Shown here: positions 24,943 to 53,526 of the stretch, piece after piece | Position numbering within the stretch: position 1 is the first letter of the stretch | Layout: each line of letters starts with the position of its first letter | Source: the human T2T-CHM13v2.0 reference genome, Homo sapiens | Length of the DNA stretch: 64,000 nt | Reading direction: 5' to 3' | NCBI GenBank assembly: GCA_009914755.4 | Contig: CP068257.2 | Span: 41,120,001 to 41,184,000 of the forward strand | Notes under the pieces: generated by a model | What the model was told of the DNA's origin: nothing | The model's database searches: none | What the model saw: only the letters and a program-made list of their open reading frames with translations | Translations under genes and position numbers: made by a program

Positions 24943-25084
24943 CCTCCGAGGGCCCAGGGCTGTGGCCCGTGAGCGTGGCCTGCCTCTATCCTCCGAGGGC
25001 CCAGGGCTGTGGCCCGTGAGCGTGGCCTGCCTCTATCCTCCGAGGGCCCAGGGCTGTGGCCCGTGAGCATGGCCCGCCTCTATC
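24943..25084. repeat. Minisatellite, 3 tandem copies of a 47-bp unit
   Basis: cctccgagggcccagggctgtggcccgtgagcgtggcctgcctctat repeated three times. The third copy carries gcatggcccgcc variants. Confidence 0.9.
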
Positions 25085-25869: not shown

Positions 25870-26290
25870 TTGGGCAGCACGCCTGTCCTAGTTTGCTGAG
25901 GCTGCCATAACAAAGTACCAGAGACTGGGGTGGCGTCAGCAGCAAAAGTTGATTCCTCAGTTCTGGAGCTGGAAGTCCAGGATCAAGGTGCTGCCAGGTT
26001 CGGCTTCTCCGGAGGCCTCGGTCCCTGGTCTGGGACCTTCTTGCTGGGGCCTCGGTCCCTGGTGTGGGACCTTCTTGCTGGGACCTCGGTCCCTGGTGTG
26101 GGACCTTCTTCCTGGCCAGCAAGATGGCCGCCTTCTTGCTGGGTCCTCATGTGGCCTGTTCTCTCGGCACATGCATCCCAGGTGCTCTTCCTCCTCTAAT
26201 GAAGACACTAGTCCCATGGGACCAAGGCCTCACCCTGACTAGATGGAAACTTCATTACCTCCGTAAAGGCCCCGTCTCCAAATAGCCCCA
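25870..26290 (+). repeat. Old MER-type interspersed repeat (same family as 3790/14640) containing an internal 34-35-bp x3 tandem triplication (26015-26117)
   Basis: ttgctgaggctgccataacaaagtaccagagactggggtggc...gttctggagctggaagtccaggatcaaggtgctgccagg...cctcggtccctggtgtgggaccttcttgctgggg x3...ccagcaagatggccgccttcttgctgggtcctcatgtggcc...aaggccccgtctccaaatagccccactggggtcggggctt. Confidence 0.55.
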
Positions 26291-27395
26291 CTGGGGTCGG
26301 GGCTTTACCATGTTGACCTGGGGAAGGGGGCAGTTCAGTTCGTAACATGCCCTTTTGGGAGGAGAAAGTCAGGCAATGAGCAGACACAGGCAGGAAGCCA
26401 CGCCGGGCTCCAGCAGGGATGGCCCAGTGCCCTGTACAGGCAGCAGGCAGCTGGGCTGGAGGTGGGCCCTGGGTGGAGGACACCTACCAGGTGTGTCTAA
26501 ACTGCCCCTTTCCTACACATCTTCCTTCGCACTGGGCTCGCCACCCAAGACCTGCTTTTTCCAGAAAGCAAAGCCTACTTTGGTCAAACTCTCATTTTTA
26601 AAAATCACTTCATCTTTTCCTCCCTAACTTAATTAGCTCCAAAGCACTGAGCTGTATTGAAATAGATCACCACAATGACAATCCTCTTTGGGACTGAAAA
26701 CAAAATCTATTTCAACTTGAACAGGGATATTGATAGAAGACAGGGCTCCATGAAAAAGGGTTAGGAGGAGCCGCTTGCTGGGGCAGGGGCCGCATCTGGG
26801 CACTGCAGTTAAGATGTTAAAGTGTCTTCGGTCCCAGGGGGCCGCAGATGAACACAGTTCAGCGTTTCTGGATGTAAATCGTCAAAGCTCCTTCGATCCC
26901 CAGCCTCGGGCAAGGAAAGGGCCTTTCTCTCTGTGATGCCACCTGTGCTCAGGTGTGCACTGGATGGAACTGTGTCCTAGACCCCTCAGCTGTGATATTG
27001 ATCCGCTGAGATTGTTTTTCATCTGTAGAAATCAATAAATTCCTTTTTGGTGCAGTGTTTTGTGAACGGGTGCACTCTCTCACCCGGTCGCTGTCCTAAG
27101 AATTCTCCTTGACTTCGGAACTGGCCCTCCACGCCCCAGGATCCACCTGCCAGGAGACCCCCAGTGTGCTCTCAAACCCCCACCCATCTGAGTGGCCTGG
27201 AAAGGCTGGTCTGAAGACCTCTCTTCCCATGTCTGCCGACCAGGCTTTGCTCTCCAGGGACTTTCTGGGAGGGGGAGAACCCACCTCCTGCCAACGGCCC
27301 TGCTGGCACTCCGAGGACAGCAGAGGGAAGGAAGCCAGGGGCTGGGGAGCCGGCCACACAACTGCCCAGTGCCTATCCTTCTCCTGTGCCCACAG

Positions 27396-27482
27396 ATGCT
27401 GAGCTGCCTGGAGCACATGTACCACGACCTCGGGCTGGTCAGGGACTTCAGCATCAACCCTGTCACCCTCAGGAGGTGGCTG
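27396..27482 (+). CDS. PDE9A: PDE9A coding exon encoding [29 protein letters not shown] (87 nt, symmetric). This is the start of the catalytic region.
   Basis: Acceptor ctcctgtgcccacAG|atg at 27394-27395. Donor CTG|GTGAGT at 27483. Confidence 0.9.
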
Positions 27483-27766
27483 GTGAGTGCCAAACCCGCC
27501 TTCGGTTCTTCCTGGGCACGTGGTTTCATCCAGTTCCACAGGAATGGAGGGAATGGATCACCAGGGCACCTTCCGGATGGCACTGCGCTCCCTGTGAGCA
27601 GAGGTGACATTTCCCCGGGAGTTCTGTGAGGACACTCAGCCTGTCTCTGTTCCTCCTTCCACCAAAACCTTCTTTACGCCCGAGCTACTCCTGCTCTGAT
27701 AAGCAAGGAGTAGCTTATCAGTGAGACTCTGCCATCATCAAGCAAAGCAGCATGTCCTAAAGCAGC

Positions 27767-28285
27767 GGTGTGTGGGAGCGTGTGTGTGTGTGTGGGAGCG
27801 TGTGTGTGTGTGAGAGTGAGTATGGGGGTGTGGATGTGAGTGTGTGTGAGTGTGGGGTGTGGATGTGAGCATGGGGGTGTCTGCATGTGTTTGTGAGTGG
27901 GTGTGTGGATGTAAATGTGTGGGAGCGTGTGTGTGTGTGAGTGTGGGGTGTGGGTGTGAGCATGGGGGTATCTGAGTTTACGGGTGGGTGTGTGTGAATG
28001 TGTGGTGGGAGTGTGTGGGGTGGGAGTAGGAGTGTGGAGGTGTGTCTGTGTGTGTCAGTGTGGATGTGTGCATGTGTATATCTGGATGTGGGGTGTGTCT
28101 GTGTGTGGGTGTGTGTGAGGGTGTGTGTGCATGTGTGTATCTGTGGATGTGAGGTGTGTGTGCATGTGTGTATCTGGATGTGGGGGTGTGTGAGGGTGGA
28201 TGTGTGCATGTGTGTGTGTGGATGTGGGGTGTGTGAGTGTGTGGTGTGTGAGTGGGTGTGTGCATGTGGGTGTCTGCCTGTGTGA
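27767..28285. repeat. About 520-bp imperfect TG-rich repeat ((TG)n interrupted by GGGAGCG / GAGTG / GGAT motifs) in the intron between exons 27396..27482 and 28725..28829
   Basis: ggtgtgtgggagcgtgtgtgtgtgtgtgggagcgtgtgtgtgtgtgagagtgagtatgggggtgtggatgtgagtgtgtgtgag...gtgtgtgcatgtgggtgtctgcctgtgtgaatatg. The antisense ORF through it reads a His/Thr-rich protein (low-complexity artefact). Confidence 0.95.
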
Positions 28286-28724
28286 ATATGTTTGGCAGCA
28301 GGTTTTTTTAATGAAATATTGCTCAGAACCAAATATTAAAAGCCTATTAAAGGTTTCATGGCGACTGGGGACCCAGAGCTCCCTCTTGGAGTCTCCCCTC
28401 CCCCCATCCCCTAACTTTATGCCCCACTGTGGCTCCTCAGACACCTCCGGGGAGACCCCAGTCCTTGACTGCAGGGTGAAACCCCTGGTGGGAGCTCTGT
28501 CCCCACACCTGCCCCGGGTGCCGTGGTGTGGCCCGCTGGACGTTCTCAGGGTCCCTGTGTCACCTCATTGGTACCTGTGGTAAACCTGGAACACTGTTGA
28601 CCTCTGGTTGGGATGAGGGTTTGGCAGAGAATGTTCAAACCAGCGCACAGCCTTCTGGGTGGCTTTGGGAGGAGAGGTGGGCGGGCCCAGGCACAGGGTG
28701 ACTCGGACCCCCTGCCTCCCGCAG

Positions 28725-28829
28725 TTCTGCGTCCACGACAACTACAGAAACAACCCCTTCCACAACTTCCGGCACTGCTTCTGCGTGGCCCAGATGATGT
28801 ACAGCATGGTCTGGCTCTGCAGTCTCCAG
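28725..28829 (+). CDS. PDE9A: PDE9A catalytic-domain exon encoding [35 protein letters not shown] (105 nt)
   Basis: Acceptor cctgcctcccgcAG|ttc at 28723-28724. Donor CAG|GTGGGT at 28830. Contains the PDE metal-binding HNxxH motif (HNFRH). Confidence 0.92.
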
Positions 28830-29221
28830 GTGGGTCCTGCCCGCTGCACACCCAGACCTCTACTCTCGGGGGTCAGACGGAGGCCCCCTTCCAGGGAGCG
28901 GCAGCCCCATCCCACCAAGAGAGCCACAGGCGTGGGGTCCCCAGCCGCTCCGCCCCTCCTAGGGACGCACCCCTGCCCACCGTTGTCAGTCACCCCATGG
29001 GCGAGGCTGCTCCTAGGATTACAAGAGCAGGTGAGTCCCCGACCTGGTCACCCCCCCAACCCCCACAGGCAGGCCGATCCTCTCCCACCATGCCAGGAGA
29101 TGCCAGATGGCTGCAGGGGCCTTTGTCCCCCACTTACCACTCACCCAATTCCACCCCCCCTCACCCCATCCCACCCTCCGAGTGAAGAGAGCAAACACCT
29201 ACACCCTGTTTTCCAATCCAG

Positions 29222-29304
29222 GAGAAGTTCTCACAAACGGATATCCTGATCCTAATGACAGCGGCCATCTGCCACGATCTGGACCATCCCGGCTACAACA
29301 ACAC
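29222..29304 (+). CDS. PDE9A: PDE9A catalytic-domain exon encoding [27 protein letters not shown](T)
   Basis: Acceptor ttttccaatccAG|gag at 29220-29221. Donor AC|GTATGT at 29305. Contains the canonical PDE HDxxH motif (HDLDH). Confidence 0.92.
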
Positions 29305-30479
29305 GTATGTACAGGATTTTCTCTTTTTTTCCTTTTAAAAGGCACCCTGGCTACTGGAGGGAACCTGTCAGCCCAACCCTCAGAGCAGTTCCCAGATGGA
29401 GCTGTCAACGACGGCCTCCCAGCCCCCAACTCTGCCTCCACTGACACAGCTCCTGGCTTCTGGACTTTGCCCAGGGCCTTGGGTCTCCCCGGAGTAGGAA
29501 CTTTCAGGATTATCAAACCCCAGGGGGTCTTTCCCACTCCTGTGCGGGCCTGGCTTCAGGCTCAGGTGCACGGCAGATCCCTGGCCCCGCCGGCGCCTTC
29601 TCCACCCCAGGCAGGGAGCAACACCTGTCCGCATGCAGGGATGGGGGCTCCACACCCCCCTCTCAGGAGCTCGCCTCTCCCTGGGCAGGCTCCCAGCTGG
29701 CTTCCGCAGGGAAAGCACAGGCAGGAGCCAGAAGAGAGCAGAAGAGGGGGAGAAGAGGGACTGCAGAGGGACAGGAGGTGGGAGTGAGGTGTCCCTCGTG
29801 GGGCCAGGGATCAGAAGGACAGACCGTTGCTCCACTCCTGCCTCCACAGGCACAGAGTTCCGCCCCATGTGGCGGACAAGGTCCAGGCCATGGGCTTGGG
29901 TCTGTGTCCTCAGTGGCGCAGCAGCTCTCTCTGTTGAACTGTGTGTTTGTGTGATGTCATCACATGCCTGAGAGCTCTGCTGCCATGTGTCAGCGCCTAG
30001 TGGGTTCCGAGGTGTGGCTGTCAGCGCTCCTCCCGGGGCCATCACCATGCACACCCATCTGTTCCCCTTTTGCTCATTTCACACTCACAGTGGCCGGCAC
30101 AGCACAGGTCAGCAGAGGCCTTGACCACAGCATCCCAGTGAACCTCAGCCTCGTTCTGCCCACCTGCCTCTGGCACCTGGTGACATTTGATAATCTCACA
30201 AGAGGCCGTGATGCCTCAGGGCCTGTCCCAGGGAGCATGCCGCTTCCTCAGAGGTGTCTGTCTGGTGGGACTGCCCGAGCATGGGGACGTGCAGTTGCAG
30301 GGGCAGCTGAGCGGCAGGAGGGACCTCCTGGCCAGGCCAGGGCACAGGCAGCTCCCCCAGCCCCCACGGCACCTTCTCCTGACTCTACTTGCTCCACTTA
30401 CATGGCTGGGTGTTGCTCCCCGGTGCAGGTACCTGGTGAGGGCGCCTGAGTCTCCCCTCACTCTCTCCTTGCCTCCCAG

Positions 30480-30636
30480 GTACCAGATCAATGCCCGCAC
30501 AGAGCTGGCGGTCCGCTACAATGACATCTCACCGCTGGAGAACCACCACTGCGCCGTGGCCTTCCAGATCCTCGCCGAGCCTGAGTGCAACATCTTCTCC
30601 AACATCCCACCTGATGGGTTCAAGCAGATCCGACAG
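30480..30636 (+). CDS. PDE9A: PDE9A catalytic-domain exon encoding (T)[52 protein letters not shown]
   Basis: Acceptor ctctccttgcctcccAG|g at 30478-30479. Donor CAG|GTGTGT at 30637. Confidence 0.92.
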
Positions 30637-30955
30637 GTGTGTGGGGTGAGGGCCCTCCCACCGGAGTGGGGGCACATTCAGGGACAGAGCAGCCCCCACT
30701 CTCCATTGGCTGGAAGCTCCCAGAAGCTCCTGGCCACAGCAGTGCCCTGGGGACCCAAGGGAACCCCTCCCTCCTTCCTCACCTCCTCCAGGGCCCAGAG
30801 TGGCGCCCCAAAAAGAGGGTACCCTCGCCATGCGCACGTGTATCCCACTGACCTGCACTTCCCAGCCTGTATTTAATTCAGCCTTCACTGGCTCCCTTTG
30901 AGATAAATCCTTTGTCCCTCTTCCAGCCCAAGAAACTGAGGCTTAGCAAAGGTAG

Positions 30956-31388
<433 letters not shown>

Positions 31389-33370
31389 CACCCCTTCCAT
31401 TTTAGATAAGGGGGCTTTATGCCTCTCAGGGCGTGATGGGAGGAGAGTGAGAGGATATCTGCGTGAGAGGAAGATGACCTGGTCCACCTGCCCCAGACAA
31501 ACACCTCCAGCTCACCGAAATAACGCCCCATTCCACACGGGAATTCCTCATCAAACCCTCACTCTCTGACATTTGCAGGGGAGGGAAGCTCTCGGAGTAA
31601 ACCCTGGGAGAAATGTGTTGGGTTGAATAGCAGCGTCCTTCAAACAAGGTCCACCTCCCGTGAATGTGATCTTATTTGGAAAAGGGTCTTTGCATTTGTA
31701 CTTGTTAAGATTTCCAGATAAGATCAGTGTGGATTGTCTAAGGGGGCCGTAAATCCAAAGACTAGTGTCCTTGGACGAGGAGACAGAGTAGAAAACAGCC
31801 CAGACACAGAGGAGAAGGCCGCATGAAGACGCAGTGATTGGAGATTTGAGTGATGCAGCCCCAAACTAAGGGACTTCGGGGCCCCCAGGAGCAGGAGGAG
31901 ACAAGGAAGGACCCTCCCCTGGAGTCTTCTTTGAGAGCAGGGCCCTGCCCACACTTTGATCTTGGTTCTGGCTTCCAGAACTGTGAGAGAATGAGTTTGT
32001 TGTTTTAAGCCGCCTAGTTTGTGGTACTTTGTGTGGCGGCCCCAGGACACTCACCCAGGGCACCGTCTTCTGCGGTTCCACAAGGCAGACCTCAGCCATT
32101 CGAAGTCTAAGTGGCTTCCTTCCAGAGGCAGCAAGAAAGACTGCCTGGACTTCAGCACTGGGAAGATACTCACCACCCTCCAGGCGTGCTGCTGAGCCTC
32201 CCTTTATCAGAGAGCAGCAGCCTCTTCTACCATGGCTTTCCAATTTGTCTACGCTTCCAGGAAGTTCAAAGCCCAGTGTAAAAAACTGAAGTCAGTGAAG
32301 CATTTGGGGAAGCTCCGAGGAAGCAGCATGCTCCCTGGGACGGGGCCCTGAGGCATCACGGCCTCTTGCGAAATTGTCAAATGCCACCATGTGCCAGAGG
32401 CAGAGGTGGGCAGAACCAGGCTGTGGTTCATTGGGATGCTGTGGTCAAGGCCTCTGCTGGCCTGTGCTGTGCCAGCCACTGTGAGTGTGAAATGAGCAGG
32501 AGAACAGATGGGTGTGCATGGTGATGGCCCCGGGAGGAGCGCCGACAGCCGCACCTCAGAACCCACTCGGCGCTGACATACGGCGGCAGCGCTCTCGGGC
32601 CTGTGATGACATCATTGCACAAACATACACAATTCAATAGACAATTTACAGTCATTATTGAATCACCGGTTCCCAGTACAGTTATCTCCCCTTTATCTAT
32701 AGGCTCTCTGGCCTCTCCTCCATGTTTGTGCCCCTCCCCACCCTGCAAGCAGGTGCCCTGTGTGGCTACGATAAGCTGTGGCAAATCTTCGTCTGCAGTA
32801 GGTCAAGGAGCAACCGTGAAGAGAGAACGCTGCATCTGCCACTGCTACCCCAGTGGGGAGCTCCTCCAGGGACAGGACCTGGGGAATCAAAGCAAGTGAA
32901 CGCCCCTTAGTGTAGGCCTCGTCCCACTGAGCCATGTCGGAGAGCATCCCGCAAGAGAAGGAGGCGGCACCTGATTGGAGGAGCAGCCGCTCTGCACAGG
33001 GGATCGTTCTCGTGCCCATCCACCGTGGGGACACACCAGCATTGGCCTGCTTCAAATGCTTCACTGACTGCAAAATATGACTCTCCTCTGGGGGTAAAAT
33101 TAGTTGTCCCACTTTTTTAAAAATATATTTTGTCATGGAAGATTTCAGGAATAACTGAATAAATGCTTCACTAATAACACAATTAAATGTTTACAGGAAA
33201 ATTGAATAATTCAAGATACAAGTGATCCCCCCAAAAAAATATATATATATACAGTTGAAATGACCTAGATTGATGGGTTTGGGTTTTGTATCTGATGCTT
33301 GTTGTTTTATTTTCTTGGAAGAGGAAAACATCATACCTGGCACAGAGATGTGTTCTGTAAATGCTTGTGG

Positions 33371-33660
33371 GGTGGGTGGGTGGATGGATGGATGGATGGA
33401 TGGATGGATGGATGGATGGATGAATGGGTGGATGGGTGGATGGACAAATGGATGGAAGGGTGGATGGATGGATGGGTGGATGGGTGGATGAATGGACAGA
33501 TGGATAAATGGGTGGAAGGATGGATGGATAAATGGATGGAAGGGCAGATGGATGGGTGGATGGGTAGATGGATGGAGGATGAATGGGTGGATGGATGGAT
33601 GAATGGATGGGTTTTTGGGTGGGCAGATGGATGTGTGGACAAATGGATGGGTGATGGATG
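33371..33660. repeat. (GGAT)n / GGATGGATGGGTGGAT-type satellite, about 290 bp, ending about 125 nt upstream of exon 33786..33899
   Basis: gtgggtgggtggatggatggatggatggatggatggatggatggatgaatgggtggatgggtggatggacaaatggatggaagggtggatgg...ggatgtgtggacaaatggatgggtgatggatg. Confidence 0.95.
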
Positions 33661-33785
33661 CACATATGAATCGGAATAAGAGATACATGAAATAATGTGT
33701 GCAGGGGGCTCAGTACACAGTAGGCCTCCGCTGAATAATTGTTCAGACTATACCCGTGTTAACACGTTGTTCTCTCGCTATTTAG

Positions 33786-33899
33786 GGAATGATCACATTA
33801 ATCTTGGCCACTGACATGGCAAGACATGCAGAAATTATGGATTCTTTCAAAGAGAAAATGGAGAATTTTGACTACAGCAACGAGGAGCACATGACCCTG
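33786..33899 (+). CDS. PDE9A: PDE9A catalytic-domain exon encoding [38 protein letters not shown] (114 nt)
   Basis: Acceptor tctctcgctatttAG|gga at 33784-33785. Donor CTG|GTGAGT at 33900. Contains the PDE ATDMxxH motif. Confidence 0.92.
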
Positions 33900-34463
33900 G
33901 TGAGTGGCTTATTCTGCCTGGGTGGGCAGCCAGGCGGTGGGCTGGCGAAGCAGGTCATCCATCCAGCTCACACTGGAAGCCAAGAAGCTGAAATTATTAG
34001 TCTTCTTGGAACAAGGTGTCTATAAATCTGGTTTTCAAGGTCATGACTCTTACTAGGAAAGTCCGGGCAGGGCCTCCCTCCTGATGGGGACTCCTTCATG
34101 GTCAGAGGCAGCATTCTCCCATTCCTCCATCTCTTTTGGATTTGAAGGAGATAAGTGGGTGAAGGCCGTGCATCTCGCTCTGCTTTCCAGAGAATAAAAC
34201 CAGCTCTCCCATGAAGGCACAGCCCCAGCATGGCACTCTGAAAGCCCACCTATGTGGGGGCAACTCCAACACAGCTCCCGCTCCCCAGGCCAGCATCCCC
34301 CACCAGGCCCACACCGTAGCCTAGCACCCCTCCATAACCAGGACAAGGTGGCCAGAGAAGGGGTAGGGGGCCTCCCCCATGAGAAGGTGCACTTAGGTTG
34401 CCCAGCATCTGCCTTTTGGAAAGGACAGGCACTGGGCACACCAAGGCACACAAGGACCAGAGC

Positions 34464-34852
<389 letters not shown>

Positions 34853-36591
34853 TTATCTGTTTAAAATCAATAGCATCACTTTCCACCTCCAGAGAGGTTG
34901 AAAGATAGGGAACTCTCGGCTCAGGCTGACCTTCTAACCATCCAGTCCCAGTAGGTAGAGTCATTAGGACTCATCGCTCTCTGGAGCTGAGGTGCAGTTA
35001 ATTCCCAAAGACTGTGCGAGAGGATGGGAGCTCCCGCAGGCAAGGGCTGGACAGCAGGCAAACCTCCCCAGGCCAGGGCCACCAGAAGCCCCTTCCCTAA
35101 GAGGGAAATAGTCACATAGAGCGGCTTCCTGGCAAGCAAGTTTCTTGCTCCTGAAAAACCAAGGGAAGGAGGGAGGCGCCGCCTTGTCCTCTAAGATATG
35201 AGGAAGGCAGAGATGGACCTGCAGTCAGGGGTGACCCAGGCCCCGCCGATGCCTTCCTCCTCTGAGGTGGGAGGAGAGGTCAGGGAAGAGACGGGGAGGG
35301 GCAGGATGCCAGAGGATCGGGTGCCAGGTGGTCAGGACAAGTGAACCCAGCTGAAGGTCCCCACTCCCACCCCACCCCCAGCCTTACACACTGCAGCTGT
35401 GCAGACCAGAGGCAAAGCGAGGCTCAGAGCCCAGGGTTCCGTTTATCCCAACGACCGGCACCGTGGGGTCAGATGACAAGCAGCACGGCCAGGCATCGTC
35501 TCACTGCTACGGAGCCCCAGACGGGGCTTTATGAACACGGGTGGAGGACAGAGGTTGGGGTAAGGTCTCGGGGGAAAGGTTCTGATTCAAAATGGGCCCC
35601 GATAGGGAGGCCTCTGAGGATAGTGCGGGCCGGCGTGGGAGGTGTGAGGTGCAGGGAGTGTGGCCGGCAGGGCCTGGGACCTTGACCTTCCCCAGAGACA
35701 CTGCTGCCCTGGCCCTGCCCTAGGTCTGGTGTCGGGACAGCTCCACTGAGGCCGGCCAGGCACAGGCTAGTCATTGCCTCTGGTCTGGAGCCGGACTCCA
35801 CAGAGGAGTCAAAGAAAGGCCTGAATGGCTTCCTGGGAACTGATAGGGCAGGGAAAGGAAGGGCGACCACAGCAGGATCCCTTCGAGGTCCTGCCGAGGT
35901 TGGAAGGCAGGATCCACCAAGCATCATGCAGACTCCGAGCTGAACTGAGCTGCTCCTCACCTAGTCACGTTCCCCAAACCAGCAGGTGCAGCCCGCAGCC
36001 CGGGGGCATGTGCCTCAGCTGGGCTTTCCTGTCTAATCCGCTTCAGAGCCTGGATGGCAACCAACACTTTGGTCTGGAAACCTGGTGATTCCAGACACTC
36101 ATTTGTGCCCGGTGCAGGCAGGGCCACGGGACGCCAGCCCTCCACCTCTTGTCCTATGGCGACATCCGGGCTAGTTTGGGTGGAAGCTGCTGCATTCCTG
36201 GGCCTGCCCTATCTCCTCCTGAAGCTCCTATGGCATGCCCAACCCTGGCCAAGCTGAGACAGAGCTACCTGTCCCCTGGGAAGATGAGCAATGCACCCAC
36301 CTAGGGAACAGCAGAAAATAGGGGGTGACCAGGCACAGGGCAGTGCTTCAGGGGATATCACCTGGGCTGGGGTGGCCAGAAAGGCTGGAAGGAGGGGACC
36401 CAAACAAGACCTTGAAGGTTCATTCTCCATTGAGAAGGGAGCCTGTCCTCCCTGAAGGCAGCCAAGCTCAGTTGCATGGTCCAGCAGGTCCTCCGTCTCT
36501 TCCTGCCTGTAATGGCAAGTCCAGACCCGAGCAGCAGCAGCAGGCCGTGTTCTACCTCCTGTTACCTCAATTCCAAAATCTCTTCTTTCAG

Positions 36592-36696
36592 CTGAAGATG
36601 ATTTTGATAAAATGCTGTGATATCTCTAACGAGGTCCGTCCAATGGAAGTCGCAGAGCCTTGGGTGGACTGTTTATTAGAGGAATATTTTATGCAG
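36592..36696 (+). CDS. PDE9A: PDE9A catalytic-domain exon encoding [35 protein letters not shown] (105 nt)
   Basis: Acceptor tctcttctttcAG|ctg at 36590-36591. Donor CAG|GTAAGA at 36697. Confidence 0.92.
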
Positions 36697-37430
36697 GTAA
36701 GAGTCTTGCAGAGCAATCAAGCCTCCAGCCACTCTTATTAGCCCCACTTAGTAAGGGTTTGCGTTAAACGAGCACGCCAGGGTGGTCCCGCATATTCACC
36801 GGGCTGCCGACAGTTCAGCCTCCAGAAAGCCTTCAGGGTAAGCGTACATCAGAAACAAAATAGGTTATAATTTGAGACCTGAAAGACAGTAACAATCCAG
36901 AAAAGCTAATACTCTAAAACTGTCACCTGTCACTGCTAATTGAGCCATTATTACAAGCAGCCTTGTCAAACAAATTGCCTGAAAGTCAAGAAGCAAGGAC
37001 TGCAGAAGCAGGAGGGGGCCCAGGAGGGCCGAGACCCAGCAGGTCAGCTCACACAGATGGCCACGGGGAAGGTCGGGGACATAGAAAACCAAGCCAGCTG
37101 AAAACAACCACCAAATATTAATACAACAGCTTGATGAACCCTAGGAGAAGTCGGGAGGCTTTCTGCAGGACGCTGCTGCCGTCCTGGGATACATCCATCC
37201 AACTCACCTCTGCCTATCTCTCAGGTCGGTCTTCCCAGCTAGACCTGCATGCCCAGCTCTGTTTAGCACTGAAGATAGGGTCACCTTCTCCTTGTTCTTA
37301 CTGAGACACATTTGTGGTGTGGTTTGGTTGGTTGGTGGTTAACTGGCGCATCTTGTCTTTCTCTGAGAACAGCGATCTGGTTATGGGGCATTTCTGTCTC
37401 TAATGTCACTGTCTGCTGCATTCCCTGCAG

Positions 37431-37559
37431 AGCGACCGTGAGAAGTCAGAAGGCCTTCCCGTGGCCCCGTTCATGGACCGAGACAAAGTGACCAAGGCCA
37501 CAGCCCAGATTGGGTTCATCAAGTTTGTCCTGATCCCAATGTTTGAAACAGTGACCAAG
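37431..37559 (+). CDS. PDE9A: PDE9A catalytic-domain exon encoding [43 protein letters not shown] (129 nt)
   Basis: Acceptor ctgcattccctgcAG|agc at 37429-37430. Donor AAG|GTGAGT at 37560. The six-frame ORF 37461..38321 reads straight through this donor into a CA-rich repeat. Confidence 0.92.
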
Positions 37560-37589
37560 GTGAGTAACTGTCACCACATGTCACACTTG

Positions 37590-38288
37590 CTTACACTCAG
37601 ATACATGCATGCACACACAGGCACACACACATATACACATATGCACACAGGTACACACAGACACACACTCATGCACACACATACACAGATACACACAGAC
37701 GCACATACAGGCACATACACATATACACACACGCACACAGCTACACACAGGCACACACACAGGCACACACTTGTGCACACAGGTACACAGGCACACAAAT
37801 GCACACACAGGGCACACAGGCACACACTCGTGCACACACATGTACACAGGCACACACAGGCACACAAATGTGCATGCAGGTACACATGCACACAAGGCAC
37901 ACAGGCACACACAGGCACACAAATGCACACACAGGCACACACACACATGCACACAGGTACACACAGGCACACAAATGCACATGCAGGTACACATGCACAC
38001 ACAGGCACACACAGGGACACACAGGCACACATAGGCACACAAATGCACACACAGGCACACACACATGCACACCGGTACACACAGGCACACACTCGTGCAC
38101 ACGTACACAGGCATACAAATGCACACGCAGGCACACACAGGTACGTAGGCACACACAAGCACATACACATATACACACATGCACACAGGTACACGCAGGC
38201 ACACACGTACAGAGGCACACACATGCACACACAGGTATGCACATGCACGCCCACAGGTACACACAGGCACACCTGCACACCTGCACAT
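37590..38288. repeat. About 700-bp imperfect CA-rich minisatellite (units approximating ACACAGGCACAC / CACATGCACAC) beginning about 30 nt downstream of the exon 37431..37559 donor
   Basis: cacacacaggcacacacacatatacacatatgcacacaggtacacacagacacacactcatgcacacacatacacagatacacacagacgcacatacagg...continuing to 38288. Sense and antisense ORFs through it give His/Thr/Ala-rich and Cys/Val-rich artefactual peptides. Confidence 0.95.
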
Positions 38289-39181
38289 CCTGAGCAGCCT
38301 CTTCCCCGGCTGTCGTCGTGACCGCTGTCCCTGTTCCATCCAGAGCCTGCTACCCACAGCCTGGCCCGTGACCCCAGCATCTCCCACTCTGTGCTGCACT
38401 CCCTGCCTTGCCTTGCTGGGCCCTGGGGGGCCCCTCACTGCCCTCGCCCATCGCTGCCGGCCTTCAGGACCCTGGAGGCAGCACTGGCTGTGGACTCTCC
38501 TGTCCCCACTCTGCGTCCCAGTTCCTCACCTGTGGAGGAACCCCTGAGCTCTGTGCCCTCGAGCTGTGAAGCCCCTGTCCAGCTCCCAGTCTCACCGCAC
38601 CCAGCCACCGAGACCTTGCTCCTTGCACACAGCTCGTTCCTGCCCAGCTCCCCCCAGGGCCTCTGAGCTGCCTGTGGCCCCCTGCCAAGGCCCCCACCTC
38701 AAGGCACCCCCAGCATGTCCAAAACAGGCCCATCTCTTGTTCCCCCCGGGGATCTGGGCTCACAGCCTCACACCCTCCGACCTTCCTGGGCTCCTACGCT
38801 GCGCATCCTTCTGCTCTAGGGCATCTCTTGGAGCCACCCCACCCACTTCCCACTCCCAGGACCCTCAGCCGGGAGGCTGTCAGCTCCTTTCCCCTGCCCC
38901 GTGTCTTTGTAAGAACCTCCCAACCTGTCCCCCACCCTCATCTCACGGGCACGGGGGACACAGGAGGCAGGAAGGGGACTTTCTGTAGGACCTCATGGAG
39001 GGTGATGAGGGCCAGAGACAGAGCCGCAGTGGGTGGAGGCAGCAGAGCCGGCACGAGGGTGTCCAGGAGCTGGGACTGGCCCAGAGGTTTCCGCATGGAG
39101 CACCTGACACCTGTTTTTCTCCGACGTTTCCCATTGCCTTAAGAACGAGGGACTCTGAATAAATCCGTGTGTCTCTCCCAG

Positions 39182-39277
39182 CTCTTCCCCATGGTTGAGG
39201 AGATCATGCTGCAGCCACTTTGGGAATCCCGAGATCGCTACGAGGAGCTGAAGCGGATAGATGACGCCATGAAAGAG
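39182..39277 (+). CDS. PDE9A: PDE9A exon encoding [32 protein letters not shown] (96 nt)
   Basis: Acceptor gtgtgtctctcccAG|ctc at 39180-39181. Donor GAG|GTAAAA at 39278. Confidence 0.9.
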
Positions 39278-40119
39278 GTAAAACACACTGAGAAGAGCCT
39301 GCCTTCCTTGCGGCAAGCAGGCACGCTGCCCTCCGCACTCCCGACTCCAGAAGCTTGGACGTGCCAAGCAGGGCACCACTGAAGGCCCCGTGGACAGGCA
39401 CACGTGTACCTTCCATCAGAAAGCCTGGCTCAGTAAAATTAGGGAATGCGATGAGGGAAACCAAAACTGCATTCGCCAAGAACACGTCAGGTCTCAGTAG
39501 CTTCGAGGGAGTTTACTGGCCGTGCCCTTCACAAGAATCACAACTGTCACCCACACCTGTGGACACCCAGGTGTCTTTGGGTGTATCAGCCGCCGTTAGA
39601 GCATCTGGGACCCCTCAGAGTACAGTGCCTGGCCTGGCCCCAGGGCTGACTTGTTCAGAGGAGGCCATGGGGTAGAAAGGGGCCCTCCCCTGGCACGGGA
39701 ACAAAGCGACCACCCACCTGCCAGCTCCCGGGCCCAGAACACACACCGGCACCTCTCAGGGGCCAGGGAGCCTGGGGCTGGCTTTAGGTTGCTGCTGGAC
39801 AGATATCATTTTGGAGGAAGGGGTCCAGGTCACAGCCTCAGGGCCCACGCAGTCTGTCTACGGATTCCCCCCGGCTGTCTGCTGTCCTGCTGCCCATGGT
39901 GTGGCCTCTGCCCCTCCCAGCCTCCTGCCTCCTCCCTCCAGCGCCCCCAGGCAGCTAGAACAGTCTTACTACTCCTGCAGGGTTTGACCCCTCCTGGCCT
40001 TGGCCGGTGTTGCCTCTGCCACCCCCGCTCCCCACAGTGCCACTGAAGCACCCTCCAAGGCCCGTCAGTCAGGGCTCCCCTAGTTACTGTGCCCACCACC
40101 CCGTCTTTTCTGCCTGGGC

Positions 40120-46977: not shown

Positions 46978-47835
46978 GTGGGGGGGGTCAGCCCCCTGCC
47001 CGGCCAGCCGCCCCGTCTGGGAGGGAGGTGGGGGGGTCAGCCCCCGCCCGGCCAGCCGCCCCGTCTGGGAGGGAGGTGGGGGGGTCAGCCCCCCGCCCGG
47101 CCAGCCGCCCCGTCTGGGAGGGAGGTGGGGGGGTCAGCCCCCCGCCCGGCCAGCCACCCCGTCTGGGAGGGAGGTGGGGGGGTCAGCCCCCCGCCCGGCC
47201 AGCCGCCCCATCCAGGAGGTGAGGGGCGCTTCTGCCCGGCCGCCCCTACTGGGAAGTGAGGAGCCCCTCTGCCCGGCCACGACCCCGTCTGGGAGGTGTG
47301 CCCAGCGGCTCATTGGGGATGGGCCATGATGACAATGGCGGTTTTGTGGAATAGAAAGGCGGGAAGGGTGGGGAAAAAATTGAGAAATCGGATGGTTGCC
47401 GGGTCTGTGTGGATAGAAGTAGACATGGGAGACTTTTCATTTTGTTCTGTACTAAGAAAAATTCTTCTGCCTTGGGATCCTGTTGATCTGTGACCTTACC
47501 CCCAACCCTGTGTTCTCTGAAACATGTGCTGTGTCCACTCAGGGTTGAATGGATTAAGGGCGGTGCAAGATGTGCTTTGTTAAACAGACGCTTGAAGGCA
47601 GCATGCGCGTTAAGAGTCATCACCACTCCCTAATCTCAAGTACCCAGGGACACAAACACTGCGGAAGGCCGCAGGGTCCTCTGCCTAGGAAAACCAGAGA
47701 CCTTTGTTCACTTGTTTATCTGCTGACCTTCCCTCCACTATTGTCCTATGACCCTGCCAAATCCCCCTCTGCGAGAAACACCCAAGAATGATCAATAAAA
47801 AAAAAATAAAAAATAAATAAATAAATAAATAAAAT
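46978..47835 (+). mobile_element. SVA retrotransposon, 5'-truncated (GC-rich VNTR of about 57-bp units 46978-47290, SINE-R/HERV-K-derived region about 47290-47795, AATA-rich poly(A) tail). Perfect 14-15-bp TSD aaaatctcagtcca at 46964-46977 and 47837-47850.
   Basis: VNTR: (gggggggtcagccccccgcccggccagccgccccgtctgggagggaggtg)x4-5. SINE-R: ...tgtgctgtgtccactcagggttgaatggattaagggcggtgcaagatgtgctttgttaaacagacgcttgaaggcagcatgcgcgttaagagtcatcaccactccctaatctcaagtacccagggacacaaacactgcggaaggccgcagggtcctctgcctaggaaaaccagagacctttgttcacttgtttatctgctgaccttccctccactattgtcctatgaccctgccaaatccccctctgcgagaaacacccaagaatgatcaataaaaaaaaaa. The flanking direct repeats are identical. Confidence 0.9.
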
Positions 47836-50115: not shown

Positions 50116-50490
50116 TGCTGCCAGCAAGCTCCTCCCACTCTGCTCACCTGCCCCGAGGTTCCCAGAAGTTCTCAATCAGTACCATGTCCTTTCCCCTTCT
50201 CGAAGAAAAACACTGTTGGCAATGGAACAGCGCCTCCCATTATCCTCCTGTCCTCACCAGGAACAGGCTCCCCAGACAGCAGACACTGTTTTCCGCGAGC
50301 CGGAGGCAGCCAGATTTGAGCCCAGATACCGCCATGGCCACTCCTGCGAAACCCTAGAAAGCCAGGGACATATTCAGGGGACTTCTCTTGCTCCAAGAAG
50401 CCGTGCCTGGCAGTCAGCGCCTGCACACAGGCAGCTCCCATGGCAGGAGCATGGGTGGCCAAAGGGGCCAAGGTTCTCTGTTGTCAGTCC

Positions 50491-50716
50491 TGCCTCGCCT
50501 GCCTCCCCTCCCTCCCCTGCCTCTCCTCCCTCCCCTCTTTCCCGTCCCTCCCCTCCCTCCCCTCTCCCCTTCCTCCTCTCCCTCCTCTTACTCCCCTCCC
50601 TCCCCTCCCTCCTCTGCCTCCCTTCCCTCCCCTGCCTCTCCTTTCTCCCCTCCCTCCCCTCACTCCCTTCCCTCTCTTTCCTTCTCTCCCTCTCCTCTCT
50701 CCTCTCCCTTCCCTGC
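50491..50716. repeat. About 225-bp polypyrimidine (CCTC/CCCT)n tract on the + strand. A potential H-DNA-forming sequence.
   Basis: cctgcctcgcctgcctcccctccctcccctgcctctcctccctcccctctttcccgtccctcccctccctcccctctccccttcctcctctccctcctcttactcccctccctcccctccctcctctgcctcccttccctcccctgcctctcctttctcccctccctcccctcactcccttccctctctttccttctctccctctcctctctcctctcccttccc. Confidence 0.95.
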
Positions 50717-51719
50717 CTGCATGACCTTGAGCTTTTCCTCTGTTAGTCCCAGGAGCAGCTGCACTGGGTCAGGAGTTTCTGAGCCTGGCTGGTCCTCAGG
50801 CCGTCTGTGGACACTGAGACACGCCCCAGCCCTGAGATTCTGATTCTGTAGGCCTGTTCTGGTTGCCAGGTCTGTTTTGCCAAGCTGTGTGTTTCTGGTG
50901 CAAGGCGTAGGGTGCGCGCTCGATGGCCTCCTGGGTGCTGCCATCTGCCCATCTGTATCTGCATCTGATGCCCGTGAGGAGACATAATGGAAGCAAGAGT
51001 GTGGGGTGGGAGGCCCTAATTGTTTCAGGGAAGTGTCCCAGCTTGGAAGTGGATTCTTGCAGGGGCTCTGGTCTGGTGGAGAAAGTGGAGAAGGCAGCCT
51101 GGGGACGTGGCTGGGTGGGGAGTGGGCGCAGGCACAGAGCCAGCCTGCATGCTCCTTCTCTCCCTCCATGGACATAAGGACAGTGAAGTACTGTCCATAC
51201 CACCGCGTCCAGGCATCTCACACGCCCTACACCTGAGAAACGGAGCTGAAAAATGAATTTGTGCTGTCCATCCACCACATCAGAAAGACGAGGGACAGTG
51301 ATGCCTAGTGTGGGTCACCAGAGAGGCCCACAGGGGACCCCTAACCTGCTACAGTTGTGCTCTAGTCATTTGTTTCTTGGCATTAGGGGCACTTTAAACC
51401 ATCAAATTAACAACCTCACCATAGTAACAACCTGTTCAATGTCACCAGGGGATCCTAATTGGCTCACAGTTAAGCCCCTTTCAACCTTCGCACTGTCGTG
51501 GTTGTCAGGACTGCCAAGCCGCCCTCCCATGCCTGCTCCTCATGCCTGTCCACTCTACAAGCCAGCTGTAAAACCCCTGCCCCCACCCTCTGTGTCGGTC
51601 CATGGTCACCACCCTGTCACCTCCAGCATCAGTCACGCCTCCGTGGTGGGCGTGGGGGCCCCACCCGAGGCTCCCGGGCATTTCTCTGATGGCTAATGAG
51701 ACTGATCTTTGATTTTTGA

Positions 51720-52163
<444 letters not shown>

Positions 52164-53155
52164 TGATCCCTTGCAGTTAACTCTATGTCCTATTACATCT
52201 TCTCCTGTAATAGGTGATCCAGGAGGCTACAACAGGCTGAAGTCTGTGTGTCCCACACATTCCTATGTTGAAATCCCAACCCCCGAGGTATTAGGAGGTG
52301 GAGGCTTTGGGAGGTGATGAGGTCATGAGGGGAGCGTGAGACTGGTCCCCTTGCAAAAGGGACCCCAGGAAGCTCTGTTCCGCCACGTGAGGATGCACAC
52401 GAAGGCAGCACCGCCTGCAGCCTGGAGCAGCACCCTCCCCAGAACCCGACCATCCCACCCCGATCTGCGATCTGCGGCTTCGGACCTCCAGGGCTGAGAG
52501 AGCCCAGGCTGCAGGGCAGAAGCCCCACTCTCCAGCCCCCGCCTGAGCTGCATAAGGCGGCCGCCCTTCCTCCACCCCCCTCTCTTCCGGGTCTCTGCTT
52601 GCGCTGGTTTCCTGTTGTTGCTGTAACAATTGCCGACGGAGCACCACAGATTCCCTCTCTGACAGCCCTGGGCGTCAGGAGCCCACAGGCCCTGCCACAG
52701 AACTGAAGCCAAGGTGCCAGCTGGACTGCTTCCTTGCCAGGGACCTGCAGGAAAATTCATCCTGGCCTTTTCTGTGGCCTTGCCCATGGCCTCGCCCATG
52801 GCCTCTTCCTCTGGTTCAAAGCCCATCATTCCAACCTCTGCTCCTATCATCCCCTCCCCTCTCCTTCGTTCCCTCTCCACTGCCTCTCCCTGCCCTCCTC
52901 TGCTGCCCTCCCGAAAGGACCCGAGGTGATACAGGCCCACAGGGCAGTCTGGCACAGCCTCCCCCGCTTCAGGTCCGGGGTTTAATCACATCTACAAAGT
53001 TGCTTTGGCTGTGGGAGCCAACGCTCACACGTTCCAGGAATTAGGACCAGGAAATCCTGGTGGGAGGGTGGGGGCAGATTCTGTCCTCCACCTGGCTGGG
53101 GGACCAAGTTGGCAGCGGGGCCTTTCCTGACTGCCCTGTCAGAAACTGCAGCACC

Positions 53156-53526
53156 ACCCTACCCCACTCCACCTCACCCCTACCTCACCCCACCTCACCC
53201 CTACCTCACCCCACCTCACCCCACCTCACCCCTACCTCACCCCACCTCACCCCACTCCACCCTCATCCCACCACACCCCCACTCCACCCACCCCTACTCC
53301 ACCCCACCTTTACCCCACCCCACCCCTGCCTCACCCCACCTCACCCCACTTCCACTCCAACCCACCTTACCCCGCCCCTACTCCACCCCACCCCTACCTC
53401 ACCCTCATCTCACCCGACCCCACCCCACCTCCACTCCAGCCCACCCTACCCCATCCCCACCCCACCCCACCCCCACCCTCATCTCACCTGACCCCACCCC
53501 CAGTCCACCCCACCCCCACTCCCCAC
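53156..53526. repeat. C/A-rich minisatellite (about 12-16-bp units approximating CCTCACCCCACCTCACC / CCACTCCACCC), about 370 bp. The complementary strand is G-rich.
   Basis: ccctaccccactccacctcacccctacctcaccccacctcacccctacctcaccccacctcaccccacctcacccctacctcaccccacctcaccccactccaccc...ccccacccccactcc. The + strand ORF gives a Pro/His/Thr-rich artefactual peptide. Confidence 0.9.

What the first reader, a model, noticed from the sequence alone, without database searches (positions are those of the whole stretch)
27767..38288. Complementary UG-rich and CA-rich intronic tracts bracket exons 28725..37559, whose combined length (693 nt) is in frame
A roughly 520-bp TG-rich repeat (27767-28285) lies in the intron before the FCVHDNY exon. 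A roughly 700-bp CA-rich repeat (37590-38288) starts 30 nt after the donor of the ...FETVTK exon. In the pre-mRNA these are (UG)n-like and (CA)n-like and are mutually complementary, so they could pair over long stretches and loop out the six intervening exons (105+83+157+114+105+129 = 693 nt = 231 codons, flanking exons both phase 0). That geometry favours either in-frame skipping of most of the catalytic domain or back-splicing to a circular RNA. CA-rich intronic tracts are also hnRNP L binding sites that modulate adjacent splice-site use.
Basis: inference. Interest (0 to 1): 0.55.

Follow-up and report, generated by a model that had tools for sequence, protein, structure and literature searches.

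The report
Complementary TG and CA repeats bracketing PDE9A exons
Two long, degenerate simple repeats (TG-rich and CA-rich) really do sit in the introns on either side of six catalytic-domain exons of PDE9A. They are ancient and could base-pair on paper, but nothing shows that they cause exon skipping or a circular RNA, so this is an ordinary repeat feature with an untested hypothesis attached.

Summary
A 519-nt TG/G-rich tract (27767-28285) and a 699-nt CA-rich tract (37590-38288) lie in the introns flanking six PDE9A exons that total 693 nt. They are the only such tracts in the window.

In silico they pair. Cofolding gives 397 intermolecular pairs and ddG about -424 kcal/mol. When both whole introns are cofolded, ddG is still -285.

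New here: both tracts sit at orthologous positions in primates, a carnivore, a whale, a bat and rodents. They are short (70-250 nt) outside catarrhine primates, where pairing potential is weak.

The "in frame" point carries no weight, because 8 of 9 introns here are phase 0.

No PDE9A circRNA or catalytic-exon-skipped isoform turned up in the searchable literature or protein collections. Published work says the 3' half is spliced constitutively. The flanking introns are short, their splice sites are strong, and the tracts carry G-U wobbles and pseudo splice sites, all of which work against circularisation.

Most likely these are old, self-renewing microsatellites that expanded in catarrhines and are bound separately by repeat-specific hnRNPs. 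Cross-exon pairing is a possible minor by-product.

Interest is low to moderate. Novelty: new member of a known kind.

The parts
27767..28285 (+). TG/G-rich degenerate repeat (UG-rich in the pre-mRNA). It lies in the 1242-nt intron between exons 27396-27482 and 28725-28829 and makes up 42 % of that intron.
   Evidence: It has four (UG)>=6 runs, 23 G-runs of 3 or more, 7 GTGAGT pseudo-donors, no canonical G4 motif, and three (GN)>=12 stretches. It is orthologous in 7/7 assessable mammals and always starts 170-285 nt after the upstream donor.
37590..38288 (+). CA-rich degenerate repeat (consensus unit about GCACACACAG). It starts 31 nt after the donor of exon 37431-37559 and makes up 43 % of the 1622-nt intron.
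   Evidence: It has 69 CACACA, 111 CANRCA, 26 CACAGG and 9 CAGGTA motifs. It is present 1-41 nt after the orthologous donor in 7/8 mammals.
27396..27482 (+). Upstream flanking exon (87 nt, ...[10 protein letters not shown]), donor CTG|GTGAGT, followed by a phase-0 intron.
28725..28829 (+). Bracketed exon 1 of 6 (105 nt, FCVHDNY...).
29222..29304 (+). Bracketed exon 2 of 6 (83 nt).
30480..30636 (+). Bracketed exon 3 of 6 (157 nt). It is itself flanked by a separate 330-bp inverted repeat.
33786..33899 (+). Bracketed exon 4 of 6 (114 nt).
36592..36696 (+). Bracketed exon 5 of 6 (105 nt).
37431..37559 (+). Bracketed exon 6 of 6 (129 nt, ...PMFETVTK), donor AAG|GTGAGT.
39182..39277 (+). Downstream flanking exon (96 nt, LFPMVEEIM...). 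Its acceptor lies 894 nt after the end of the CA tract.
5607..5791 (+). Third, weaker CA-rich tract in an upstream intron. It is also complementary to the TG tract, so it is a possible alternative partner.
   Evidence: duplex with the TG tract -192 kcal/mol; counterparts in colobus, Nasalis, panda and Marmota.

Best explanation
The two tracts are old (TG)n- and (CA)n-derived microsatellites. They were already present at these two intronic positions in the boreoeutherian ancestor. Slippage and unequal exchange have kept them alive, and they grew into 0.4-1.7-kb degenerate, minisatellite-like arrays in catarrhine primates.

In the PDE9A pre-mRNA each tract is a long, weakly self-structured, single-stranded platform. 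I infer that each acts separately, as a binding site for repeat-specific hnRNPs. The CA tract next to the exon-37559 donor would bind hnRNP L. The UG runs and G-runs of the upstream tract would bind TDP-43 and hnRNP H/F. Bound protein would modulate or insulate splicing of the neighbouring constitutive exons and silence the many pseudo splice sites that the repeats themselves create.

The tracts can pair with each other thermodynamically, and this may give a trace of the 693-nt circle or the six-exon skip. I judge that a minor by-product, not the reason the tracts exist.

Shown: sequence, exon structure, orthology, predicted pairing. Inferred: protein binding, cryptic-site repression, low yield of looped products.
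For: - Orthology and age. The TG tract is in the same intron in 7/7 assessable species. The CA tract follows the same donor in 7/8 species. The flanks align.
- Position relative to 5' splice sites is kept while length varies more than 10-fold: TG 105-1655 nt, CA 70-830 nt.
- Motif content fits known binding specificities: CACACA x69, (UG)>=6 x4, G-runs x23. hnRNP L binds CA repeats, TDP-43 binds UG repeats, and both repress cryptic exons (PMC5959245).
- The tracts are packed with pseudo sites: GTGAGT at 13.5/kb against 0.5/kb in the window, CACAGG at 37/kb against 1.2/kb, and 9 CAGGTA.
- Self-folding is weak, -0.14 to -0.15 kcal/mol per nt.
- Higher-order TRF periods and the many other tandem arrays in the window fit a repeat-prone region.
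- The catalytic half of PDE9A is reported as constitutively spliced (PMC1647287).
Against: - No CLIP or binding data could be consulted, so protein occupancy is inferred from motif content only.
- The adjacent splice sites are already consensus-strong, so an enhancer role is not obviously needed.
- Fukomys lacks the CA tract in the 155 nt after the donor, before an assembly gap, so the tract may be dispensable.
- Three of about eight TG/CA tract sites in this gene are shared between orders. Persistence may therefore be mutational rather than selected.
- Predicted inter-tract pairing is strong in human and Nasalis and has no within-intron competitor, so a structural role is not excluded.
Confidence: 0.45

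Rival explanations
1. The UG-rich and CA-rich tracts pair across 9.3 kb of pre-mRNA and loop out the six exons. That pairing measurably drives back-splicing (donor 37559 to acceptor 28725, giving a 693-nt circle) and/or the in-frame skip 27482^39182. Output would depend on repeat length.
For: - Cofold ddG is -424 kcal/mol with 397 intermolecular pairs.
- Pairing survives competition from both complete introns: 395 pairs, ddG -285.
- Each tract is the other's unique best 8-mer-complement partner in 64 kb, and there is no within-intron competitor.
- The geometry is favourable: the duplex ends 440 nt before the acceptor and 31 nt after the donor.
- Inverted repeats of 30-40 nt are sufficient for circularisation in minigenes (PMC4201285).
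- Both tracts are conserved and both expanded in catarrhines.
- The circle would carry an endless ORF in frame 0.
Against: - No PDE9A circRNA or catalytic-exon skip appears in the searchable literature or in the protein collections. The latter test was insensitive.
- The helices are short: mean 5.8 bp, maximum 17, 12 % G-U.
- Wobble pairs, low-complexity repeats and intronic cryptic 5' splice sites inhibit circularisation, and the tracts contain many of these.
- The flanking introns are short with strong sites. From general knowledge of co-transcriptional splicing, the upstream intron is therefore likely removed before the CA tract, 9.3 kb downstream, is transcribed.
- Repeat-binding hnRNPs would compete with duplex formation.
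- Pairing potential outside primates is weak.
- In fish, where AC/GT pairing is used, the cross-exon arrangement is avoided (PMC4691745).
Confidence: 0.2
2. The tracts are neutral repeats. They are self-perpetuating microsatellites and minisatellites in a repeat-prone, GC-rich region, with no effect on PDE9A RNA processing. Their complementary orientation would be a coin-flip.
For: - The arrays are degenerate (60-66 % TRF matches) with minisatellite-like higher-order periods.
- Length varies more than 10-fold between species, and one rodent lacks the CA tract.
- There are 45 TRF rows in 64 kb.
- Orientation has probability 1/2 and the in-frame property is the default.
- A third CA tract elsewhere in the gene is also shared between orders. 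Persistence alone is therefore not special here.
Against: - Both tracts kept the same position relative to a 5' splice site in four mammalian orders, while five other TG/CA tracts in the same introns are lineage-specific singletons.
- Transcribed CA and UG repeats are established high-affinity hnRNP L and TDP-43 sites, so complete inertness in the pre-mRNA is unlikely.
Confidence: 0.3

Closest known systems
Exon circularisation driven by reverse-complementary intronic repeats (inverted Alu pairs, mouse Sry repeats; Liang & Wilusz 2014, PMC4201285)
   Same: Complementary sequences lie in the two introns flanking a block of exons. Across-exon pairing is favoured over within-intron pairing. One arm sits within tens of nt of the donor and the other within a few hundred nt of the acceptor.
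   Different: The arms are low-complexity TG/CA arrays rather than Alu or unique inverted repeats. The duplex is slippery and irregular, with G-U pairs. The flanking introns are short with strong sites. No back-splice junction has been demonstrated.
Teleost (AC)m-(GT)n structured introns (Lin et al. 2016, PMC4691745)
   Same: AC/CA repeats lie just downstream of a 5' splice site and are complementary to GT/TG repeats elsewhere in the pre-mRNA. The pairing of these two dinucleotide repeats is experimentally established.
   Different: In fish the two repeats sit at the two ends of one intron and promote its normal removal. Here they are in different introns, across six exons. That paper reports this arrangement as avoided in zebrafish and describes the class as lost in humans.
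[quoted passage not shown] 2003 and 2005, as cited in PMC5959245)
   Same: A length-variable CA-rich tract lies a few tens of nt downstream of a 5' splice site and has a dense supply of CACACA motifs.
   Different: The tract is 700 nt long, degenerate (about a 10-nt GCACACACAG unit) and next to an already consensus donor. Binding and effect were not tested.
TDP-43 UG-repeat sites that repress cryptic exons or modulate nearby exons (Ling et al. 2015, as cited in PMC5959245)
   Same: (UG)>=6 runs lie downstream of a 5' splice site, in a tract containing many GTGAGT pseudo-donors.
   Different: No TDP-43-dependent PDE9A event is reported in the library. The tract is interrupted and very G-rich, so hnRNP H/F-type G-runs may matter as much.

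Membership tests
Inverted-repeat-flanked circRNA locus | Reverse-complementary sequence in both flanking introns | tested here: met
   RNAduplex -571.8 against -290 +/- 53 for random pairs; 397 intermolecular pairs in the cofold.
Inverted-repeat-flanked circRNA locus | Across-exon pairing outcompetes within-intron pairing | tested here: met
   There is no complementary partner inside either intron. Cofolding the whole introns keeps 395 TG:CA pairs with ddG -285.
Inverted-repeat-flanked circRNA locus | Observed back-splice junction joining the bracketed exons | not testable with these tools
   No RNA-seq or circRNA database is available. The literature searches found none.
Inverted-repeat-flanked circRNA locus | Slowly spliced, typically long, flanking introns (typical rather than strictly defining) | tested here: not met
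   The introns are 1242 and 1622 nt with consensus donors and acceptors.
(AC)m-(GT)n structured intron (teleost type) | AC repeat near the 5' splice site and GT repeat near the 3' splice site of the same intron | tested here: not met
   The intron after 37559 has a CA tract but no TG tract. The intron after 27482 has a TG tract but no CA tract.
hnRNP L CA-repeat/CA-rich intronic element | Cluster of CA repeats or CA-rich motifs close to a splice site | tested here: met
   69 CACACA and 111 CANRCA motifs, starting 31 nt after the donor.
hnRNP L CA-repeat/CA-rich intronic element | hnRNP L binding and an hnRNP L-dependent splicing change | not testable with these tools
   No CLIP or knock-down data are available here.
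TDP-43 UG-repeat site | (UG)n with n of at least about 6 | tested here: met
   Runs of 12-15 nt at 27780, 27800, 27927 and 28209.
TDP-43 UG-repeat site | TDP-43 binding or a dependent splicing event | not testable with these tools
   The library has no paper that contains PDE9A together with two of the three terms cryptic exon, TDP-43 and HNRNPL.
Microsatellite-derived tandem repeat | Tandem periodicity detectable by TRF | tested here: met
   Period 2, 262 copies, 60 % matches for the TG tract. Period 10, 66.6 copies, 66 % matches for the CA tract. Both also show higher-order periods.

The most novel reading that the evidence does not exclude
The TG and CA tracts form a conserved long-range clamp that expanded in catarrhine primates and varies in length between individuals. 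The clamp would set how often PDE9A transcripts lose their catalytic core. The products would be a 693-nt circular RNA with an endless reading frame and a catalytically dead in-frame linear isoform. Microsatellite length would then tune cGMP-phosphodiesterase dosage. The third CA tract at 5607-5791 would compete as an alternative partner.
Probability: 0.06. Interest if true: 0.7.

Novelty: new member of a known kind. Interest (0 to 1): 0.3.

Why it matters
PDE9A is a drug target in heart failure and cognition. A repeat-length-dependent route to catalytically dead or circular products would be a new layer of control over its dosage. It would also be a mammalian counterpart, in the opposite cross-exon geometry, to the AC/GT-paired introns of fish.

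As the evidence stands, the value is narrower. The locus is a well-defined, cheaply testable case: two junction sequences to grep, and two tracts to delete. The pair of complementary microsatellites has kept its positions for roughly the age of Boreoeutheria. The work also shows that the in-frame argument and the predicted duplex energy are not evidence of function on their own.

Tried and rejected
- A sliding RNAduplex scan of the whole window against each tract timed out. I replaced it with an 8-mer complementarity scan.
- A fuzzy Alu-head search was crude. It served only to show that the 29930/32313 inverted repeat is not an Alu.
- The second homologous-protein search, which used N-terminal and middle exons to reach the longest isoforms, returned only 8 fragments.
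- The third search used the skip-junction peptide and returned 45 single-exon read-through ORFs. None contained RRWL|LFPMV. It did not return the normal full-length isoforms either, so this negative result is weak.
- The look-up of encoding contigs holds only the longest isoform. Five look-ups found nothing or a gene range that was too long.
- The supplements of the GTEx splicing-tandem-repeat paper (PMC10078293) are not held.
- Rfam gives no family hit in 26500-40000.
- I rejected membership of the teleost (AC)m-(GT)n intron class, because the repeats are not in the same intron.
- I rejected G-quadruplex formation as a major competitor, because the TG tract has no (G3+N1-12)x4 motif. Three (GN)>=12 stretches leave a pUG-fold-like alternative open, and I did not test it.
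- I rejected the in-frame sum as evidence of anything.
Full report
**What is there.** The window carries the 3' half of PDE9A on the + strand. Splicing the mapped exons gives a 292-aa translation that matches the human PDE9A catalytic-domain crystal constructs at E 1e-204. Human PDE9A isoforms fall in the same 90 % clusters as the hits.

| Exon | Coordinates | Length (nt) |
|---|---|---|
| 1 | 28725-28829 | 105 |
| 2 | 29222-29304 | 83 |
| 3 | 30480-30636 | 157 |
| 4 | 33786-33899 | 114 |
| 5 | 36592-36696 | 105 |
| 6 | 37431-37559 | 129 |

The sum is 693 nt. The flanking exons are 27396-27482 and 39182-39277.

The TG tract (27767-28285, 519 nt, G 0.505, T 0.347) and the CA tract (37590-38288, 699 nt, A 0.386, C 0.349) are real. 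They are the only such tracts in 64 kb. Both are degenerate, with 60-66 % TRF matches, and both show higher-order periods of 61-91 and 68 nt. This pattern is typical of microsatellites that have become minisatellite-like. Each tract fills about 42-43 % of a short intron of 1242 or 1622 nt.

**What chance explains.** Two TG/CA-type tracts are complementary with probability 1/2. The in-frame sum is not informative. Eight of the nine introns between 22460 and 39277 are phase 0, so 28 of 36 intron pairs bracket an in-frame block.

**Can the tracts pair?** Yes, on paper.
- RNAduplex gives -571.8 kcal/mol, against -290 +/- 53 for 30 random 519x699 segment pairs from the window.
- Cofolding gives -602.7, against -73.8 and -105.0 for the tracts alone (ddG -424). 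It has 397 intermolecular pairs: 174 G-C, 146 U-A, 17 C-G, 14 A-U and 46 G-U/U-G.
- There are 69 helices, with mean length 5.8 bp and maximum 17. The longest exact Watson-Crick run is 20.
- This is 49 % of the energy of a perfect complement of the TG tract. Per nucleotide it is -1.10 kcal/mol, against -1.93 for a 330-bp inverted repeat elsewhere in the gene.
- Pairing is compositional and independent of register, because reversing the CA tract gives -556.
- When the two complete introns are cofolded, 395 TG:CA pairs remain and ddG is -285 kcal/mol relative to each intron folding alone.
- An 8-mer complement scan shows that each tract is the other's unique strong partner. It scores 72 and 69 hits per 150 nt, and the next best is 32. 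Neither intron holds an internal competitor.

**Conservation (new).** I fetched seven orthologous PDE9A loci: red colobus L001, panda L002, gray whale L003, Miniopterus bat L004, Fukomys L005, Marmota L006 and Nasalis L007.

The TG tract lies in the same intron in all 7 assessable species and starts 170-285 nt after the upstream donor. The flanks align up to the point where the tract starts. The CA tract starts 1-41 nt after the orthologous donor in 7 of 8 species, following a conserved GTGAGTRACYRTCACCAC motif.

| Species | TG tract (nt) | CA tract (nt) |
|---|---|---|
| Human | 519 | 699 |
| Nasalis | 1655 | 830 |
| Red colobus | assembly gap | 365 |
| Panda | at least 1220, in three blocks | 70 |
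| Gray whale | 250 | 85 |
| Bat | 170 | 90 |
| Marmota | 105 | 110 |
| Fukomys | 130 | none in the first 155 nt, then a gap |

Across 13 introns in 8 species, the only other shared tract is a weak CA tract in an upstream intron (window 5607-5791). Five further tracts are lineage-specific singletons.

The pair therefore dates back to roughly the boreoeutherian ancestor and expanded in catarrhines. Outside primates the pairing potential is weak: z is -2.2 to -2.8 against random pairs and the longest Watson-Crick run is 8-12 bp. In human and Nasalis z is -5.7 and -4.6. What is conserved is position relative to a 5' splice site. Strong duplex potential is not conserved.

**Is there any product?** I could not query RNA-seq.
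- No paper in the library names a PDE9A circRNA.
- Rentero et al. [quoted passage not shown]
- A protein search with the skip-junction peptide returned only single-exon fragments. None of the 256 proteins held contains either junction peptide. That search did not return the normal isoforms either, so it is a weak negative.
- One gray-whale gene model (P0169) joins exon 1 directly to the exon after exon 6. It comes from a separate 28-kb contig and is probably an annotation or assembly artefact.

**Features that argue against efficient looping.**
- Liang & Wilusz 2014 (PMC4201285) show that 30-40-nt inverted repeats suffice for circularisation. They also show that G-U wobbles, low-complexity repeats and intronic cryptic 5' splice sites inhibit it, and that the upstream intron must be spliced slowly.
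- Here 12 % of the predicted pairs are wobbles.
- The TG tract holds 7 GTGAGT. The CA tract holds 9 CAGGTA and 26 CACAGG.
- Both flanking introns are short with consensus sites, for example CTG|GTGAGT, AAG|GTGAGT and strong polypyrimidine acceptors.
- The CA tract is transcribed 9.3 kb after the TG tract.
- In zebrafish, where AC/GT pairing is functional within introns, the cross-exon arrangement is avoided (PMC4691745).

**Most likely reading.** These are ancient, self-renewing microsatellites. In the transcript they serve as separate protein-binding platforms. CA repeats are established hnRNP L sites and UG repeats are established TDP-43 sites, and both proteins repress cryptic exons next to such repeats (PMC5959245). 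The motif content fits: 69 CACACA, four (UG)>=6 runs and 23 G-runs. Protein binding is inferred and not shown. Cross-exon pairing remains physically plausible and could yield low-level circular or skipped RNA. I put the tract-dependent, measurable version of that at about 0.2, and a regulatory "rheostat" version at about 0.06.

**Comparison with known systems.** The feature would work like inverted-repeat-driven circularisation, and it meets the sequence criteria for that class. The defining back-splice product is untested. It is not a member of the teleost (AC)m-(GT)n intron class, because the repeats lie in different introns. It meets the sequence criteria for hnRNP L CA-rich elements and for TDP-43 UG sites. 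Rfam has no match in the region.

**Verdict.** I classify it as a new member of a known kind, with interest about 0.3.

Noticed in passing
window 29930-30253 (+) and 32313-32641 (-): A non-Alu inverted repeat flanks the 157-nt exon 30480-30636. The alignment is 332 bp at 88.9 % identity, and the predicted duplex is -624 kcal/mol. That exon is the only one here whose removal would shift the frame. Only two copies occur in the window. Both arms are at orthologous positions in red colobus and Nasalis. blastn finds them in none of the five non-primate loci. This looks like a catarrhine-age local inverted duplication, and it is a stronger candidate for exon circularisation or skipping than the TG/CA pair.
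   Followed up: partly
window 5607-5791: A third, weaker CA-rich tract lies in the intron between exons 1735-1806 and 12148-12231. Counterparts occur in the same intron of red colobus, Nasalis, panda and Marmota. It is also complementary to the TG tract (duplex -192 kcal/mol), so the TG tract has two possible partners.
   Followed up: partly
protein P0169 (gray whale, separate 28-kb contig): A GenBank gene model joins the FCVHDNY exon directly to the LFP(M/A)VE exon. It omits five catalytic exons (588 nt, in frame). It is probably an assembly or annotation artefact or a diverged copy.
   Followed up: no
window 33373-33610: A (TGGA)n array of about 60 copies lies in the intron between exons 30480-30636 and 33786-33899. 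There is a further TGGGTGGACAAATGGA repeat at 33616-33653.
   Followed up: no
window 46981-47224, 50489-50718, 53154-53526, 8847-9168, 24943-25084, 26014-26115: The window is unusually rich in other tandem arrays. They are a GC-rich 49-mer x5 (SVA-like VNTR, identified from memory), a CCTCC-rich array, a CCCCA-rich array, (AGAT)n x80, a 47-mer x3 and a 34-mer x3. This fits a repeat-prone region. The CCCCA-rich tract is the second-best 8-mer complement of the TG tract.
   Followed up: no
L001 57942-67941; L002 53324-54044; L005 63935-64853: Assembly gaps in red colobus, panda and Fukomys fall exactly on or beside the TG or CA tracts. This suggests the repeats break short-read assemblies and that their lengths are under-estimated in draft genomes.
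   Followed up: no
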